From the NCBI GenBank assembly GCA_011911785.1, contig GCA_011911785.1_4084.1: DNA of 64,000 bases; one strand, written 5' to 3'. The stretch is from a phage. Of the stretch, positions 475 to 62,386 are shown piece after piece (within the stretch, counting starts at the first letter, position 1; every line of letters begins with the position of its first letter). The position numbers and the translations under genes are program-made. The notes below the pieces were generated by a model that was not told where the DNA came from, searched no databases, and worked only from the letters and a program-made list of their open reading frames with translations.

Positions 475-1621
<1,147 letters not shown>

Positions 1622-1622
1622 A

Positions 1623-1680
<58 letters not shown>

Positions 1681-1685
1681 CAATC

Positions 1686-1841
<156 letters not shown>

Positions 1842-1870
1842 CAAAAACGAAATTACAATAGGAAATTAAA

Positions 1871-2056
1871 ATGCAACTTTTAATTCTTTCAATATTGTAT
1901 ATTATTATAATGGTTCCGATATCAATACGTTTAATTACAGTTGAACGATTTTTATCGAAACATGGAAATAGGTCTATGATCTTTGTACCAATCGGTCTGA
2001 TATTGTTTGGTATATTTGCATTTATAATGGGAATTAACGCTACATTCATTTCATAG
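1871..2056 (+). CDS. small hydrophobic membrane protein
   Basis: ATG with AGGAAA upstream; two hydrophobic segments. Confidence 0.5.
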   Translation: MQLLILSILYIIIMVPISIRLITVERFLSKHGNRSMIFVPIGLILFGIFAFIMGINATFIS

Positions 2057-2065
2057 GAAACAAAT

Positions 2066-2547
<482 letters not shown>

Positions 2548-2554
2548 AAGAACG

Positions 2555-2587
<33 letters not shown>

Positions 2588-2588
2588 C

Positions 2589-2644
<56 letters not shown>

Positions 2645-2645
2645 T

Positions 2646-2879
<234 letters not shown>

Positions 2880-2882
2880 TGT

Positions 2883-3227
<345 letters not shown>

Positions 3228-56221: not shown

Positions 56222-56851
56222 TTAAACACATATAGCTAGGGGAAGCTCCGTAGTGCAAGCATTATACAGGCTTTAACATATGTTGCATATGTTAAAATTC
56301 AGCCTGGACAAATGCGATCACTAGGATTCTCCCCAGGCTAAACCCCGTAATCATAGGTAGTCATAAGTAATCATATATAAACATTTAAGTAATCATTTAT
56401 AATCATTGCAGTGAAGAGTATTGAGTACTGTTTCCCCTATATGATTCAGTACTGATATCCCACTAAGTAGGCAAATGAAGTCGCCCAAAATTTACATAAT
56501 TTTACAGTACTGAACAATTGCAAAACAAATCATTTCCAATCAAAAGTAATCACGGAATGACCAGTACTGAAAACTCCCAATCACCTATTCAAAAAAGTTC
56601 AATTTACCCTTTGTCAAAAATCCCGAATACCCATTGGGGAAAATTCCGAATACCCCTTGAGGCTCCAGCAAAAAGTTGGTTAGTACTCCATTGTAAATCT
56701 GGATCGTAAAAATTTTGGAGTACCTATGAAATAAAAGTTGGATCTTCGAAAGTTGAAATTTACATTGGGACATATAGGATTAGTGGGATATAATGAGTTT
56801 TGAAGAGATACAGAAGATATGTTTTCAGTACTGAATAATGAAAGAAATCTA

Positions 56852-56879
56852 TTGACATTATGATTCAGTACTGTATAAT
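56852..56879 (+). promoter_or_regulatory. orphan sigma70-type promoter (TTGACA-16-TATAAT) in non-coding hub
   Basis: Consensus hexamers with no ORF downstream. Confidence 0.45.
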
Positions 56880-57280
56880 GTTCTACATAGAGTGATGGAT
56901 TGCCGCAAACAATTCAGAGCCTTAACCCTCCTGTCGTGAGACAGTACAGAAGAGATTGAATCCTCCTATGCAGTGGTTCATCTTTGACAACCTCTTTTTT
57001 CGTAATATAAACAGTACTGTTATTAACAGAATGGTAGCAGTACTGATATTAATCTAATATAATGTTACCATGCAATGTGGTGAATTTCCCTTAACAGTAT
57101 TCAGTACTACATGATAGTCTTCATCCTCCTAGGGTAACATAGTGAGGGCTATTGTGGCAGTACTGAATACTCCTTTCACAAGATAGATCTATGGTATAGT
57201 ACTGACGGATTTTGGGCGTAGTAACCCTGGGTGGATTTTGGACGTAGAGATGCCTAGCCCTCCAGAAGTCTGGAAGTAAA

Positions 57281-57408
57281 GATGGCTATCCCTCTAGACG
57301 GCTGGATGGCTAGATTTCTAGATGGCTGTACTGCTAGACGTTTGGACGGCTAAACGGCTAAACGGCTAAACGGCTAGATGGTTAAACGTCTGGATGTATA
57401 GACGGCTA
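57281..57408. repeat. tandem array of ~16 copies of an 8-bp unit (consensus GAYGGCTA)
   Basis: Direct reading: gatggcta, gacggctg, gatggcta, gacggcta, aacggcta x3, gatggtta, gacggcta etc. in strict 8-bp register. Confidence 0.85.
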
Positions 57409-57573
57409 AATCAAAATTTTTATTTTGTTTTTTCCAATAGTTCCCCTACCGCGTGGGGATGGTTTCCCCGCAGTATCTGGAGTTAGATTTTTCTGAATCT
57501 GGAATCATTATCTAATAAACTGGGGGCAATGTCAACCGCCTGGATGAATATTTTTAAAAATAATCTAGTACTG

Positions 57574-57650
57574 AATTTTGGGCGTAACTATGCACCCGGT
57601 GGGCTAGAGTCTTTCTCGACTTGATGAAATAATTATAGCAGTACTGAATG
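57574..57650 (+). repeat. repeat element B copy (ttttgggcgta...gcacccggtgggctagag...taattata)
   Basis: Shares ~50-bp core with copies at 57786, 59660, 61176. Confidence 0.5.
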
Positions 57651-57785
57651 ATAAAAGCAATAGCCTAAGTGTAAAAAGTTTTAATTAATTTGCTTGCCAT
57701 CCTGGGGCGTACTATGGTACTATGATTCAGTACTGAGAAAGTGCTTTTACCTGCTAGGGTGCGGGAGTGTATCCTTTTTAAATTT

Positions 57786-57860
57786 ACTGAATTTTGGGCG
57801 TAGTTCCGCACCCCCTGGGGTATCCGCTTTCTCGCGTCTATGTAGTAATTATACGCTTTT
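57786..57860 (+). repeat. repeat element B copy
   Basis: ttttgggcgtagttccgcaccccctggggtatccgctttctcgcgtctatgtagtaattatac. Confidence 0.5.
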
Positions 57861-58078
57861 TTAGTACTGAGTCAATAGCTAAAAACAAAATAATTGAAAA
57901 TAATTTAACGCGTTTAAATGGCCCGTAAAGCCCTGGATTGTTGGGAGTGGTGCAAATGTATAGCTTAGGTGTATTAATGCGTTAGAATGCGTATGAGGCC
58001 GTTTTAAGGGTATAGTACTGAATAATAGTACTCCTATATAGAAAGAAAACTATTTTAAAAAGTATTTGTAGAAAGTAC

Positions 58079-58106
58079 TTGCAAAGTATTGGGAAAGGTG
58101 TAGAAT
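58079..58106 (+). promoter_or_regulatory. early-type promoter (aaaagtacTTGCAA-16-TAGAAT-gttttacatc)
   Basis: First of >=12 near-identical promoter units in block C. Confidence 0.6.
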
Positions 58107-59292: not shown

Positions 59293-59523
59293 ATGGCTAT
59301 CATGTATATGACCGAAGTTAAAACCGTAAAAGATACTACCACTAATAAAACTACTTACTTACAGCGGGTATGCGGTGTATGGCAACGTATTAGTAAAGCA
59401 AAGTACTTTAAATTAACATCATATGCTAATCGTTCGGATTCATTCAGTACTGAAATAAAAGGTAATAAATTACACCAATACGGCACTTATTATTATTATA
59501 GCCTGGACGCGATTGCAGTCTAA
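59293..59523 (+). CDS. hypothetical protein
   Basis: ATG after AAGAGGATTTTAAA. Confidence 0.6.
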   Translation: MAIMYMTEVKTVKDTTTNKTTYLQRVCGVWQRISKAKYFKLTSYANRSDSFSTEIKGNKLHQYGTYYYYSLDAIAV

Positions 59524-59659
59524 GCAGTTTACAAATCTTTACAATTGCCGGTATTGACTTATTTTGTCAGTACTGGCATAATGTATCTATTGAAACGAAC
59601 AATTTGGCCCACGGGGTGCGGGAGTGTATCTATAGAAAAAGTAGTTTAGTACAGTTACA

Positions 59660-59710
59660 ATTGTGCACCCGGTGGGTTAGCTGTTGTCATGGGGTATATT
59701 ATACCAGTAC
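59660..59710 (+). repeat. repeat element B copy (partial)
   Basis: gtgcacccggtgggttagctgttgtcatggggtatattatac. Confidence 0.4.
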
Positions 59711-59772
59711 TTGATAATGCTGTCAATACTTTTTTTTACTATTCAGTACTGAAAACTATTTTTAAAAAGTAC

Positions 59773-59800
59773 TTGCAAACTATGTTTAAAGGCGTATAAT
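59773..59800 (+). promoter_or_regulatory. early-type promoter with leader hairpin but no ORF (degenerate duplicate of the next unit)
   Basis: TTGCAA-16-TATAAT, hairpin 59814-59841, then ccaggagtaaggcatacg where the next unit has ccaggagtaagcatcATG. Confidence 0.5.
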
Positions 59801-59890
59801 GTTTTACATCAGGACGGGGAACGAAATAAGTAACTCCCCGTTAAGTAGCCCAGGAGTAAGGCATACGAAAAACTCCCCTGATAAAATAGT

Positions 59891-59918
59891 TTGACAATTG
59901 TTTTTAAAAGCGTATAAT
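59891..59918 (+). promoter_or_regulatory. early-type promoter (TTGACA-16-TATAAT)
   Basis: Repeated unit; leader hairpin 59931-59953. Confidence 0.6.
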
Positions 59919-59973
59919 ACTTTACATCGAGGCGGGGGAATGATTCTCCCGCCTATAACCAGGAGTAAGCATC

Positions 59974-60207
59974 ATGATCGAACAAATCAAAACTACTACA
60001 AGCCGGACTGGAACGAAAGTACATTGCATCGCTGATAACGAAAAAGGCGTACCCTATTGTGCTGTACACGTAAACACAGATGGCGACTATTGGTTAACTG
60101 TATATGGGAGTTATTCGTTTGCTCGACCTGCTCATAGTAAGATCCTGGACGTAGTGAAGCCTACCGGAAAGGATATCACGGTAGAAAAATATTTTACTAA
60201 GCACTAA
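59974..60207 (+). CDS. hypothetical protein
   Basis: ATG after CCAGGAGTAAGCATC. Confidence 0.6.
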   Translation: MIEQIKTTTSRTGTKVHCIADNEKGVPYCAVHVNTDGDYWLTVYGSYSFARPAHSKILDVVKPTGKDITVEKYFTKH

Positions 60208-61112: not shown

Positions 61113-61117
61113 CAACG

Positions 61118-61147
61118 AGGGGATCAATTGATCCCCTTTCTTTTTTC
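61118..61147 (+). terminator. intrinsic terminator (GGGGATCAATTGATCCCC plus T-run)
   Basis: Perfect palindromic stem followed by T-run. Confidence 0.75.
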
Positions 61148-61175
61148 AGTACTGAATCATTTAATAGACGGATCT

Positions 61176-61235
61176 ATGCACCCGGTGGGTTAGAGACTGT
61201 TTCGTCTTTATGTAGTAATTATACAGTACTGGATG
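61176..61235 (+). repeat. repeat element B copy
   Basis: tatgcacccggtgggttagagactgtttcgtctttatgtagtaattatac. Confidence 0.5.
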
Positions 61236-61357
61236 CAGTTGTCAAGAACTATTTTTCAAATACTTTTATATTAATGTACTATACAATAGTTTTTAAACGC
61301 GTATAATGTTTTACATCTAGTCGGGAATACTCCCTAGTACTAACAAAGGATATACAA

Positions 61358-61752: not shown

Positions 61753-61780
61753 TTGACATTACCGCAAAAAGGCGTAGAAT
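61753..61780 (+). promoter_or_regulatory. early-type promoter (TTGACA-16-TAGAAT) with ~120-nt leader
   Basis: Hexamers; leader shares motifs with the orphan unit at 59773. Confidence 0.55.
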
Positions 61781-61903
61781 GTATTACATCAAGACGGGGA
61801 ACACTAAGTAGACCGCCAGTAAGTCGAACGAAAAACTGGACACGTCGAGAAAACTTTGATACACTAACTAACGTAAACTAAACTTTAATTGAGGAATTAC
61901 ATA

Positions 61904-62386
61904 ATGGCTAACGTAAAATCATTCATCAAAGCACTGGTAGCAAATGAAACTAACGTAGCGGCAGAGATCCTGGCCGAACTGGATAGCGATACCATGAAAG
62001 CAGTACGCAACAATTTTAACATTGCGTACAGCGAAGCGAAAGAACTGCAAGCTAATAAAGCGGCAGCACTTGAAGCTGAGAAGGCAGCACGCGAAGCTGA
62101 ATTGCAGAAAACGATTGAAGATATTAACGCCGCCGTCGCTGGGCTTGATCTGGAAGTAGTTACCGAAATGGCACGTAAAGCCCTGGCAGCGAAATACGGG
62201 GAAGACAAGCCAGAAGTAAAAGCTAAAAAATGGATTCAGGAACGCGTGACGGTAGTACTGGATAACGGCGAGGAATACACTGTACCAGTACGCGGTAACT
62301 GCATTGCGGTAGTACTGGATGCTATCAAAGAAAGCGGATTGACTCGCGAGGAATGGATCGAAGCTCATCGCAAAGTTGAAGCATAA
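61904..62386 (+). CDS. hypothetical Ala/Glu/Lys-rich protein
   Basis: ATG after GAGGAATTACATA; antisense track ORFs are low-complexity artefacts. Confidence 0.65.
   Translation: MANVKSFIKALVANETNVAAEILAELDSDTMKAVRNNFNIAYSEAKELQANKAAALEAEKAAREAELQKTIEDINAAVAGLDLEVVTEMARKALAAKYGEDKPEVKAKKWIQERVTVVLDNGEEYTVPVRGNCIAVVLDAIKESGLTREEWIEAHRKVEA

What the first reader, a model, noticed from the sequence alone, without database searches (positions are those of the whole stretch)
59773..59973. Degenerate duplicate promoter-leader lacking a start codon
The unit at 59773-59890 has the promoter, leader hairpin and the ccaggagtaag SD-like element of the following unit, but reads gcatacg where the functional copy reads gcatcATG, and no ORF follows. 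This looks like a duplicated expression cassette that lost its start codon, or a promoter now producing a short non-coding RNA.
Basis: seen in the sequence. Interest (0 to 1): 0.45.

Follow-up and report, generated by a model that had tools for sequence, protein, structure and literature searches.

The report
Conserved early-leader pseudoknot RNA, not relic
The "broken" promoter-leader copy is a conserved non-coding unit of a jumbo E. coli phage whose core folds into an RNA pseudoknot also found between the early promoters A1 and A2 of phage T7 and in hundreds of other virulent enterobacterial phages, with no matching family in Rfam and no known function.

Summary
59773-59890 has a sigma70-type promoter, a 5' hairpin, CCAGGAGTAAG and ACG where the next unit has ATG, and no conserved ORF. 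It is not a recent degenerate duplicate. The same ORF-less unit, with the same CAYACG, is 89-99% conserved in 45 phage records from three lineages (Asteriusvirus, Vequintavirinae, Justusliebigvirus), in front of different genes.

The "SD-like" GGAGU is one strand of an H-type pseudoknot: S1 GCC/GGC, S2 GGAGU/ACUCC. Over 39 distinct sequences, 96.8% of cells pair and 5 of 8 pairs change on both sides.

The same 35-nt core lies in the T7, T3 and phiA1122 A1 leader abutting promoter A2. It also occurs in RaK2-like and other jumbo phages, and a second time in this window (61804-61841, 5' leader of a 160-aa gene). Rfam has no matching family, and 5,426 E. coli genomes have no copy.

The unit is about 3.3 kb from the inferred left genome end, inside the terminal repeat. 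A second promoter almost always follows it.

The best reading is an immediate-early structured leader RNA made by host RNA polymerase. Its function is unknown: it may act in cis on the transcript or polymerase, or in trans as a decoy.

The window also lacks a 203-aa gene that relatives carry just downstream.

The parts
59773..59800 (+). Promoter P1: -35 TTGCAA (59773-59778), 16-nt spacer, -10 TATAAT (59795-59800). It is preceded by the AAAAAGTACT upstream motif shared by the early promoter array.
   Evidence: The promoter is conserved in all Asteriusvirus copies. A different but consensus-like promoter (TTGACA-16-TATAAT or TAAAAT) takes its place in A73, outra and muut.
59806..59808 (+). Predicted transcription start, 6-8 nt after the -10, giving an RNA that begins ACAUCAGG.
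   Evidence: Inferred from promoter geometry only. All units of the array share TATAAT-N5-ACATC. No transcript data are available.
59808..59813 (+). Closing helix H1, 5' strand AUCAGG. It pairs with 59877-59882.
   Evidence: MFE fold. H1 is invariant in 14 distinct B copies, so those copies give no covariation. The paralogue at 61788 has AUCAAG...UUUGAU, which is G-C to A-U (read).
59814..59841 (+). Hairpin H2: ACGGGGA, a 14-nt loop, UCCCCGU.
   Evidence: 92.6% of cells pair. There are G.U changes in 121Q and in G17/PBECO4/fEgEco12, a mismatch in A4, a rebuilt stem in EJP2 copy 9057, and no stem in EJP2 copy 5343 or in the P paralogue. H2 is a lineage-specific accessory. T7-like phages have CCGG-AGUCAA-CCGG at the same place, and CCAG/CUGG in KPV811.
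59842..59876 (+). Conserved core, an H-type pseudoknot. UAAGUA (59842-47), S1a GCC (59848-50), CA, S2a GGAGU (59853-57), AA, S1b GGC (59860-62), L3 AUACGAAAA (59863-71), S2b ACUCC (59872-76).
   Evidence: Covariance-model hit at 59841-59878, 55.4 bits, E 5e-13 (this sequence was in the training set). S1 is 100% paired, and its middle pair is A-U 27, C-G 6, U-A 6. S2 is 94.8% paired, with C-G/G-C, C-G/G-C/U-A and U-A/A-U/U-G at three positions.
59877..59882 (+). Closing helix H1, 3' strand CCUGAU. It directly abuts S2b.
59883..59890 (+). A-rich single-stranded linker AAAAUAGU between the folded domain and the next promoter. No U-tract and no terminator.
   Evidence: The terminator scan finds nothing between 59165 and 61117 on the + strand. 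Linker length varies among copies.
59891..59918 (+). Promoter P2: TTGACA, 16-nt spacer, TATAAT, 12 of 12 consensus matches.
   Evidence: In 121Q, G17, A4, PBECO4, fEgEco12 and UE-S1 the homologous P2 drives a 203-aa gene (phrog_5162) that is absent here.
59924..60207 (+). Leader hairpin (about 59931-59953), SD GGAG (59962-65) inside the second CCAGGAGTAAG, and a 77-aa gene (59974-60207, phrog_9227, function unknown).
   Evidence: In 121Q this gene (gp272) follows gp271 and has the hairpin and CCCAGGAGTAAG but no promoter of its own.
61753..61903 (+). Paralogous unit P. Promoter TTGACA-16-TAGAAT (61753-61780). Pseudoknot 61804-61841: S1 GAC/GUC at 61811-13 and 61823-25; S2 CCAGU/ACUGG at 61816-20 and 61835-39. 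It sits inside the roughly 115-nt 5' leader of the 160-aa gene 61904-62386 (phrog_27871).
   Evidence: 54.4 bits, E 9e-13.

Best explanation
59773-59890 is a conserved non-coding early transcription unit, not a decayed gene cassette.

A host-type (sigma70) promoter P1 should start an RNA at about 59807. Its first 75 nt or so fold into a closed domain: a terminal helix H1 that pairs the extreme 5' end (AUCAGG) with CCUGAU, an accessory hairpin H2, and a 35-nt H-type pseudoknot that is the selected core.

There is no terminator, so the transcript should run on through the second promoter P2 into the downstream early genes. The pseudoknot would then be the 5' domain of P1-initiated early RNA. P2-initiated RNA would lack it.

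The same pseudoknot sits in the leader transcribed from T7 promoter A1, ending 2 nt before the -35 of A2. It also sits behind the leading early promoters of several unrelated enterobacterial phage groups. It behaves as a horizontally mobile promoter-plus-RNA module.

Shown here: conservation, absence of a conserved ORF, base-pair covariation of both pseudoknot stems, the flanking-promoter architecture, and absence from Rfam and from E. coli genomes.

Inferred: that it is transcribed, where the RNA starts, and what it does.

My committed guess is that the RNA itself is the product and binds a conserved host component. Most likely (about 40%) it acts in cis, co-transcriptionally, on the P1 transcript or its RNA polymerase, through 5' protection or a put-like change in pausing or termination. 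Less likely (about 25%) it acts in trans as a processed decoy.
For: 1. The unit is present at 89-99% identity in 45 phage records: Asteriusvirus (2-3 copies per genome), Vequintavirinae A73/W70/A7_1/A5-4, and Justusliebigvirus outra/muut/EmilieFrey. It stands in front of at least six different downstream genes, with unrelated upstream flanks.

2. It has no conserved ORF.

3. Pseudoknot pairing over 39 distinct cores: 96.8% of cells pair against 79.1 +/- 1.4 in shuffles (0 of 500). The covariation score is 0.389 against 0.073 (0 of 500), and slid registers reach at most 0.077. Five of eight pairs change on both sides (16-sequence version). The retrieval patterns left every covarying position as N.

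4. S1 middle-pair types recur on different S2 backgrounds: GAC/GUC, GUC/GAC and GCC/GGC each occur with CCUG, CCAG or GGAG. This implies several independent switches.

5. G.U pairs occur in H2 and there is a U.G in S2. These fit + strand RNA, not duplex DNA.

6. A promoter-like site lies within 45 nt downstream in 74 of 81 distinct contexts, against 1 of 29 non-family pattern matches.

7. T7, T3, phiA1122, KPV811 and Kayfunavirus carry the core between A1 and A2. The A1-leader query matches 583 phage records.

8. The unit lies about 3.3 kb from the inferred physical left end, inside the roughly 21-kb terminal repeat (PMC13070987).

9. No Rfam family matches and no E. coli genome holds a copy.
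Against: No transcript data exist. Promoter activity, start site, RNA length and stability are all inferred.

The pseudoknot stems are short (3 and 5 bp), and no energy model for pseudoknots was run. The fifth S2 pair fails in 10 of 39 sequences.

Many sequences are closely related, so the number of independent covariation events is perhaps 6-10, far fewer than the cell counts suggest. The covariance model used to pick IMG/VR hits contained S2, which favours S2 pairing (it did not contain S1).

In T7-like phages the 3' half (ACGAAAAACAGG) lies at -38 to -50 of promoter A2. It could also serve as an UP-like element, so part of the sequence conservation may be at the DNA level.

That a promoter follows is partly trivial in an array of promoter-gene cassettes.

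Nothing here separates action in cis from action in trans, or identifies a partner.
Confidence: 0.6

Rival explanations
1. Decayed duplicate. A promoter-leader-SD cassette was duplicated and the copy lost its ATG and gene, leaving a neutral relic that may still fire.
For: The unit has the same promoter, the same ACATC start and a GC hairpin like its neighbours. It shares a private 11-mer, CCAGGAGTAAG, with the real ribosome-binding site 109 nt downstream. One EJP2 copy reads CGTATG at the ACG position, giving a 12-codon ORF. An origin from a coding cassette in the distant past is not excluded.
Against: The ACG and the lack of an ORF are shared by all 45 records and three phage lineages. The unit is more conserved than its surroundings. 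It keeps two helices through compensatory changes, and the 'SD' is replaced by non-SD sequences in homologues. It has moved between unrelated phages as a unit.
Confidence: 0.05
2. Trans-acting small RNA or decoy. The folded domain of about 75-85 nt is cut from the read-through transcript, for example by RNase E in the A/U-rich linker AUAAAAUAG|UUU. It then accumulates and titrates a host protein or a defence component, by analogy with phage pseudo-ToxI RNAs or anti-CRISPR RNAs.
For: Three points favour this. The 5' end is base-paired within a compact, tRNA-sized domain followed by a single-stranded A/U-rich stretch. The only unique product of P1 is this RNA, because P2 can express the gene. 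The motif is restricted to virulent phages of enterobacteria and absent from 5,426 E. coli genomes. Loop nucleotides (UAAGUA, AA, ACGAAAA) are conserved, which suggests specific recognition.
Against: No lineage has a terminator after the motif. In unit P and in T7 the motif is simply part of an mRNA leader. It is single-copy rather than an array like ToxI. No processing site has been shown. Rfam's ToxI and other small-RNA models do not match.
Confidence: 0.25
3. DNA-level element. The conserved sequence is the upstream region of promoter P2 (an UP element or a binding site for a host protein), or merely a recombination substrate like the PeSL cassettes of T4-type phages. The RNA fold would be incidental.
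For: In T7-like phages the core ends 2 nt before the -35 of A2. GAAAAACAGG lies where a proximal UP subsite would be. The T7 A2-A3 interval repeats the 3' half in degenerate form (CAUAAGGUGAAACAAAACGG before the A3 TTGACA). The window itself shows a gene loss with its junction at P2, as expected from promoter-mediated shuffling (PMC2839356).
Against: The distance from core to P2 varies from -3 to 43 nt, so a fixed promoter-upstream role cannot explain the conservation in jumbo phages. Complementarity is kept while the sequence changes on both sides at five pairs in two interleaved helices. That is the signature of a folded single strand, not of a protein-binding site. G.U pairs fit only the + strand RNA.
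Confidence: 0.1

Closest known systems
Phage T7 early control region: tandem E. coli-RNA-polymerase promoters A1, A2, A3 and their untranslated leader (Dunn and Studier 1983 coordinates recalled from memory; sequence checked here in T7 isolate P, phiA1122 and T3)
   Same: The same 35-nt core is present: T7 has UAAGUA-GAC-AG-CCUG(A)U-AA-GUC-GCACGAAAA-ACAGG. It lies about 50-60 nt after a strong host-type early promoter and is immediately followed by another one. It is near the genome end that enters first. It is untranslated.
   Different: I found no description of this T7 segment as a structured RNA, in Rfam or in the paper library. In the window the 5' part differs: H1 and H2 replace the T7 5' hairpins. 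S2 is GGAGU/ACUCC instead of CCUG/CAGG. The spacer to P2 is 14 nt instead of 2. There are 2-3 copies per genome instead of one.
PeSL (promoter-early stem-loop) cassettes of T4-type phages (Arbiol et al. 2010, PMC2839356; Comeau et al. 2014, PMC4122927)
   Same: Both are arrays of near-consensus sigma70 promoters with an AT-rich upstream region and G-run/C-run stem-loops between small early genes of unknown function. Both are sites of gene gain and loss between close relatives. The window's loss of the gp271 homologue at P2 fits this.
   Different: PeSL stem-loops overlap or precede the promoter and act as terminators for upstream transcription. PeSLs end in an SD and start codon. Here the structure is downstream of the start site, has no U-tract, is a pseudoknot with conserved loops, and has no gene. 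The phages are also not T4-type.
HK022 put RNAs (cis-acting RNA that makes host RNA polymerase termination-resistant; from memory)
   Same: Both are short (about 70 nt) multi-helix RNAs encoded just downstream of phage early promoters, transcribed by host polymerase, with no protein product.
   Different: There is no sequence or structure similarity. put is two stem-loops, not a pseudoknot. No effect on polymerase was tested here. The resemblance is a functional analogy only.
T4 gene 32 mRNA 5' pseudoknot (autoregulatory operator; reviewed in PMC3014915)
   Same: Both are H-type pseudoknots at the 5' end of a phage mRNA leader. In unit P (61804-61841) the pseudoknot is followed by an unstructured A/U-rich stretch with UAAAC repeats up to the ribosome-binding site.
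   Different: Unit B has no gene. The 160-aa protein after unit P has no recognisable fold or family. The motif occurs in phages that lack that protein.
ToxI-type pseudoknotted antitoxin RNAs and phage pseudo-ToxI mimics (from memory)
   Same: Both are RNA pseudoknot units of about 35 nt carried by virulent phages.
   Different: ToxI is a tandem array processed by ToxN. This motif is single-copy, and no Rfam match was found. The comparison is purely speculative.

Membership tests
Early-leader pseudoknot motif (defined here; includes the T7 A1-A2 segment) | Core consensus: UAAGUA, then G-N-C, NN, NNNGU, AA, G-N'-C, 9-nt A-rich loop (RNAYGAAAA), then AC-N'N'N'. | tested here: met
   Window 59841-59878 scores 55.4 bits, E 5e-13 (the sequence was part of the training set).
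Early-leader pseudoknot motif (defined here; includes the T7 A1-A2 segment) | Both interleaved helices (S1 3 bp, S2 5 bp) can form. | tested here: met
   GCC/GGC and GGAGU/ACUCC are all standard pairs. The family-wide figure is 96.8% paired with covariation.
Early-leader pseudoknot motif (defined here; includes the T7 A1-A2 segment) | Lies 25-62 nt downstream of a sigma70-like promoter and within 45 nt upstream of another. | tested here: met
   The P1 -10 ends 42 nt before the core, and the P2 -35 starts 14 nt after it. 74 of 81 contexts have a downstream promoter.
Early-leader pseudoknot motif (defined here; includes the T7 A1-A2 segment) | Transcribed early by host RNA polymerase and folded as RNA. 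| not testable with these tools
   No expression or probing data. Inferred from promoter consensus and G.U pairs.
PeSL cassette (T4-type phages) | Strong sigma70-like promoter with an AT-rich upstream region. | tested here: met
PeSL cassette (T4-type phages) | Stem-loop placed at or upstream of the promoter (or just before the start site) that terminates upstream transcription. | tested here: not met
   The structure is downstream of the predicted start site and has no U-tract. The terminator scan finds no site at 59800-59900.
PeSL cassette (T4-type phages) | Ends in a Shine-Dalgarno sequence and the start codon of a downstream gene. | tested here: not met
   ACG rather than ATG, no conserved ORF, and GGAG is a helix strand.
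Protein-coding gene or leader peptide | An ORF with a start codon and ribosome-binding site, conserved in frame among homologues. | tested here: not met
   The 31-aa ORF starts inside the -10 hexamer. It is truncated to 13-15 aa in copy-2 types, EJP2, outra and A7_1.
Intrinsic terminator | GC-rich hairpin followed by a U-run. | tested here: not met
   H2 is followed by UAAGUAG and H1 by AAAAUAG. No site was reported.
tRNA, tmRNA or any Rfam family (including the preQ1, SAM-II and fluoride pseudoknot riboswitches, ToxI, and small ribozymes) | A score at or near the family threshold. | tested here: not met
   ARAGORN finds nothing at the site. Rfam gathering thresholds give only five tRNAs elsewhere. 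An E <= 10 scan of 59500-60000 gives only weak, unrelated hits. T7-like and jumbo loci give none.
HK022 put-type polymerase-modifying RNA | Acts in cis to suppress pausing or termination by host RNA polymerase. | not testable with these tools
   This needs in vitro transcription or reporter assays.

The most novel reading that the evidence does not exclude
A previously unrecognised, horizontally mobile pseudoknot RNA is placed by unrelated virulent enterobacterial phages at the head of the first transcripts made by host RNA polymerase. The carriers include T7-like podophages, Asteriusvirus, RaK2-like and other jumbo myophages, and some rV5-like and phi92-like phages. The RNA would bind and reprogramme or neutralise a conserved host component. 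Candidates are the polymerase itself (a put-like anti-pausing or anti-termination signal that could speed transcription-driven genome entry), a nuclease, or an RNA-sensing defence. The well-studied T7 A1 leader would then contain a functional RNA that has gone unnoticed.
Probability: 0.35. Interest if true: 0.8.

Novelty: new variant of a known kind. Interest (0 to 1): 0.6.

Why it matters
Structured 5' leader RNAs and tandem early promoters are familiar. This particular pseudoknot has no Rfam family, and I found no description of it, although it sits in one of the most used transcription templates in molecular biology, the T7 A1 early region.

Its spread across phage families that share almost no genes points to strong selection and repeated horizontal transfer. 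So do its confinement to virulent phages of enterobacteria and its position next to the genome end that enters the cell first. The implied target is a host factor.

T7 is genetically easy to work with, and T7 A1 templates are standard for in vitro transcription. The function could therefore be tested directly.

For annotation, these ORF-less promoter units should not be treated as junk, and spurious small CDSs should not be called over them, as several GenBank records do.

Tried and rejected
- Rfam at gathering thresholds over the whole window, and at E <= 10 over 59500-60000 and four homologous loci: no family.
- ARAGORN: five tRNAs at 922-3217 only.
- Small-ORF hypothesis: rejected.
- Terminator hypothesis: rejected.
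- A boxA (GCTCTTTAACAA) like that in the T7 leader: not enriched and not near the unit.
- Host origin: no match in 5,426 complete E. coli genomes for either the window or the T7 version. The one hit in 185,579 GTDB genomes is a chance match in an archaeal MAG.
- Metagenome scan with the B-specific 19-mer: two true hits, both Asteriusvirus-like contigs, and four chance hits.
- Neighbouring proteins (59293, 59974, 60296, 58105, 61904 and the 121Q gp271 homologue): only PHROG families of unknown function, no significant Pfam hit, no PDB relative for the 160-aa protein. No candidate protein partner emerged.
- Literature: nothing on promoters or RNA in the phAPEC6 and fEgEco12 papers. No paper links T7 A1 to a pseudoknot. 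The hits in T7-like genome papers concern the capsid frameshift.
- A CsrA-sponge idea (two CAGGA motifs) and a ToxI-mimic idea were considered, but there was nothing to test them with.
- The first literature search was too broad and gave nothing useful.
- A first regular expression was wrong by one base. It was corrected.

Full report
**What the window is**

The region is about 90% identical to jumbo coliphages of the genus Asteriusvirus, such as 121Q, PBECO4, G17 and fEgEco12. Alignment to fEgEco12 puts that phage's position 1 at about window 56465. Its termini were verified experimentally and it has a 21-kb direct terminal repeat (PMC13070987).

Everything from about 58100 onward is an all-plus-strand array of small genes of unknown function. 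Each is preceded by a near-consensus sigma70 promoter and a GC-rich 5' hairpin. The finding therefore lies about 3.3 kb from the inferred left genome end, in the part of the genome expected to be transcribed first by host RNA polymerase.

**Checking the observation**

- Unit 1 has TTGCAA-16-TATAAT (59773-59800), the hairpin ACGGGGA/UCCCCGU (59814-59841), CCAGGAGTAAG (59850-59860), then GCATACG.
- Unit 2 has TTGACA-16-TATAAT (59891-59918), a hairpin, CCAGGAGTAAG (59959-59969), then CATCATG.
- The two units align far better than shuffles: score 34.5 against 5.8 +/- 2.0.
- The 11-mer occurs only at these two places in 64 kb.
- No ORF follows. The single ORF that overlaps the unit begins inside the -10 box.

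The promoter half, however, is equally similar to all other units of the array.

**It is not a local relic**

The 85-nt segment 59806-59890 is present at 89-99% identity in 45 phage records. Asteriusvirus genomes have two copies, or four where both terminal repeats are in the record. EJP2 has three.

The segment also occurs in Vequintavirinae (A73, W70, A7_1, A5-4) and in Justusliebigvirus (outra, muut, EmilieFrey), where the flanking genes are unrelated. Every copy has CAYACG rather than an ATG, and none has a gene. The one exception at the ACG position is an EJP2 copy with CGTATG and a 12-codon ORF.

The 31-codon ORF seen in the window is cut to 13-15 codons in half of the variants.

The unit precedes at least six different genes, always through a second promoter:

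- a 203-aa gene in 121Q, G17, A4, PBECO4, fEgEco12 and UE-S1
- an MRILLT gene in copy 2 and in muut
- MKHFTF in 121Q copy 2
- MAIVITR in A73
- MAKSKMF in outra
- MIEQIK in the window

In the window the 203-aa gene (phrog_5162) is missing. P2 is joined at its ACATC start to the hairpin leader of the next gene. No database record has this junction contiguous. This is the kind of promoter-mediated gene loss described for PeSL cassettes in T4-type phages (PMC2839356).

**The structure**

The minimum-free-energy fold of 59806-59895 pairs the extreme 5' end (UCAGG) with CCUGA, forms the hairpin, and pairs GGAGU with ACUCC. Its energy is -22.3 kcal/mol, z = -2.6.

Comparing variants showed a second, interleaved helix. 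The C/U in UAG[C/U]CC always changes together with the G/A in AAG[G/A]CA.

The layout is UAAGUA, S1a GCC, CA, S2a GGAGU, AA, S1b GGC, AUACGAAAA, S2b ACUCC. This is an H-type pseudoknot whose S2 3' strand abuts the closing helix.

An EJP2 copy has GGUGU/ACACC. A second unit in the window, the leader of the gene at 61904, has GAC/GUC and CCAGU/ACUGG. Its closing helix is AUCAAG/UUUGAU.

**The motif reaches far beyond this phage group**

A BLAST search with that second unit hit the region between promoters A1 and A2 of T7-like Yersinia phages. It also hit Klebsiella, Salmonella and Erwinia jumbo phages and another Vequintavirinae phage. Reading these loci gave the following.

| Phage | S1 | S2 |
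|---|---|---|
| phiA1122 | GAC/GUC | CCUGU/ACAGG |
| T7, T3, KPV811, Kayfunavirus | GAC/GUC | CCUG(A)U/ACAGG |
| fENko-Kae01 | GAC/GUC | CCAGU/ACUGG |
| LTH01 | GAC/GUC | CUUGU/ACAAG |
| Hallingskeid | GAC/GUC | CCUGU/CCAGG (one mismatch) |
| RaK2 | GCU/AGC | CCAGU/CCUGG (fifth pair U·C unpaired; GCCAG/CUGGU if shifted by one) |

The phiA1122 A1-leader query matches 583 phage records, mostly Autographiviridae of Escherichia, Klebsiella, Salmonella, Yersinia, Citrobacter and Enterobacter.

Pattern scans of IMG/VR left every covarying position free. A covariance model (S2 only) then selected the hits, which added 26 more distinct cores.

**The pair counts**

On 39 distinct sequences, 96.8% of cells form standard pairs, against 79.1 +/- 1.4% in shuffles (0 of 500). 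The covariation score is 0.389 against 0.073 (0 of 500), and at most 0.077 in all slid registers.

S1 is 100% paired, with A-U 27, C-G 6 and U-A 6 at its middle position and one C-G to U-A change at its third. S2 has C-G/G-C, C-G/G-C/U-A and U-A/A-U/U-G at three positions. Only its fifth pair is unreliable, failing in 10 of 39 (16-sequence version).

The S1 pair types occur on several S2 backgrounds, so several independent compensatory events are needed.

Within the B lineage alone, H1 is invariant. H2 is kept mainly through G.U changes. Those two helices are lineage-specific accessories. T7-like phages have a different small hairpin (CCGG-AGUCAA-CCGG, CCAG/CUGG in KPV811) at the H2 position.

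The model finds exactly two copies in the window, at 59841-59878 and 61804-61841. It finds three in the fEgEco12 terminal repeat.

**Architecture around the motif**

In 74 of 81 distinct contexts a sigma70-like promoter starts between -3 and 43 nt after the core (median 3). This holds for 1 of 29 unrelated sequences that merely match the loose pattern.

An upstream promoter-like site was found in 47 of 81 contexts under the same strict criteria, with the -10 ending 25-63 nt before the core.

In T7-like phages this is the classical A1-A2 arrangement. In the jumbo phages it is a promoter-plus-RNA cassette inserted in the promoter-gene array. No intrinsic terminator lies between the unit and 61117.

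**What it is not**

- Not a tRNA or tmRNA.
- Not any Rfam family.
- Not a terminator.
- Not a coding sequence.
- Not present in E. coli chromosomes, prophages or plasmids of 5,426 complete genomes.
- Essentially absent from 185,579 reference prokaryotic genomes.

**How it probably works**

Shown here: selection on a folded + strand nucleic acid with conserved loops, always behind an early host-type promoter, in virulent enterobacterial phages only, and mobile between phage families.

Inferred: it is transcribed from P1 starting at about 59807. Its 5' end is sequestered in H1, and the transcript continues through P2. The selected product is therefore the RNA domain.

The motif occurs in phages that share essentially no proteins, so its partner is more likely a host component than a phage protein.

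I cannot separate a cis role from a trans role. A cis role would be 5' protection of P1 transcripts, or a put-like modification of the transcribing polymerase. That is attractive because T7 genome entry is driven by transcription from A1-A3 (established knowledge). A trans role would be a processed decoy.

I put these at about 40% and 25%, with about 10% for a mainly DNA-level role as the upstream region of P2. That last reading fits the T7 geometry but not the variable spacing or the covariation.

**Still unexplained**

The 11-nt identity between the pseudoknot 5' half and the true ribosome-binding site of the 77-aa gene (also present in 121Q) remains unexplained. It may record an old recombination between the two.

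**Verdict**

The "degenerate duplicate" reading is not supported, and the "non-coding RNA" alternative is supported in a stronger form than proposed. The unit is one member of an apparently undescribed, widespread pseudoknot leader motif whose best-known instance is hidden in the T7 A1 leader. The function is unknown.

Noticed in passing
window 59545-59770 (also 57500-57880, 61150-61250; 121Q L008:5660-5780): Immediately upstream of the finding is a second ORF-less unit. A + strand promoter (TTGACT-17-CATAAT, 59554-59582) and a perfect-consensus minus-strand promoter (59726 to 59698) converge on a long hairpin, GGCCCACGGGGUGC...GCACCCGGUGGGUU (-55.5 kcal/mol, z -3.5). Three more minus-strand consensus promoters (61245, 57875, 57535) sit next to related features: the ACCCACCGGGTGC-type arm lies downstream of 61245 (arm at 61178) and 57875 (at 57808), but upstream of 57535 (nearest arm at 57592). 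The one at 61245 would give an RNA of about 100 nt ending at the bidirectional terminator 61117-61138. Relatives annotate small CDSs here (121Q_270, A4_267), but the frame is broken in the window and in G17. These are possibly antisense or convergent small RNAs.
   Followed up: partly
whole window, e.g. 56447, 57012, 59568, 59744, 60827, 61147: The palindrome CAGTACTG occurs 57 times against about 1 expected. It is mostly intergenic and sometimes lies inside promoter spacers. AGTACT also precedes many -35 boxes (AAAAAGTACTTGCA). This may be a genome-wide regulatory or protein-binding motif of these jumbo phages.
   Followed up: no
window 59891-59976 compared with 121Q L001:2170-2925: The window lacks the 203-aa gene (121Q gp271, phrog_5162) that follows the unit in 121Q, G17, A4, PBECO4, fEgEco12 and UE-S1. 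Promoter P2 is fused at ACATC to the hairpin leader of the gp272 homologue. No phage record holds this junction contiguous. This is a PeSL-like, promoter-mediated deletion.
   Followed up: yes
window 61753-62386: A second pseudoknot copy lies in the roughly 115-nt leader of a 160-aa gene (phrog_27871, no Pfam or PDB relative). It is followed by an A/U-rich stretch with CUAAC/UAAAC repeats and weak promoter-like sites (TGGACA-17-TACACT, TTGATA-17-TAAACT). The layout recalls the T4 gene 32 operator, but the protein is uncharacterised.
   Followed up: partly
window ~56465-58100: About 1.6 kb of non-coding DNA lies at the inferred left genome end. It has tandem GGCTAAAC/GGCTAGAT-type repeats at about 57270-57410, many CAGTACTG sites and several promoter-like sites on both strands. 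This is probably the terminus and packaging region of the direct terminal repeat.
   Followed up: no
T7 isolate P, L031:600-670: The T7 A2-A3 interval ends with a degenerate repeat of the 3' half of the motif (CAUAAGGUGAAACAAAACGG-TTGACAACATGAAGTAA against CUGAUAAGUCGCACGAAAAACAGGTA-TTGACAACATGAAGTAA). A2 and A3 look like a duplication that kept only part of the pseudoknot. The covariance model finds no second copy.
   Followed up: partly
muut L006:1521-1601: The muut copy has one extra G in the GGGG run and one extra C in the CCCC run of the closing region. This could be a compensatory insertion extending an alternative long-range GGGGG/CCCCC pairing, or homopolymer sequencing noise.
   Followed up: no
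phage database hits: Several records labelled as Campylobacter phages match this Escherichia jumbo-phage region at high identity. This is probably mislabelling or contamination in those records.
   Followed up: no
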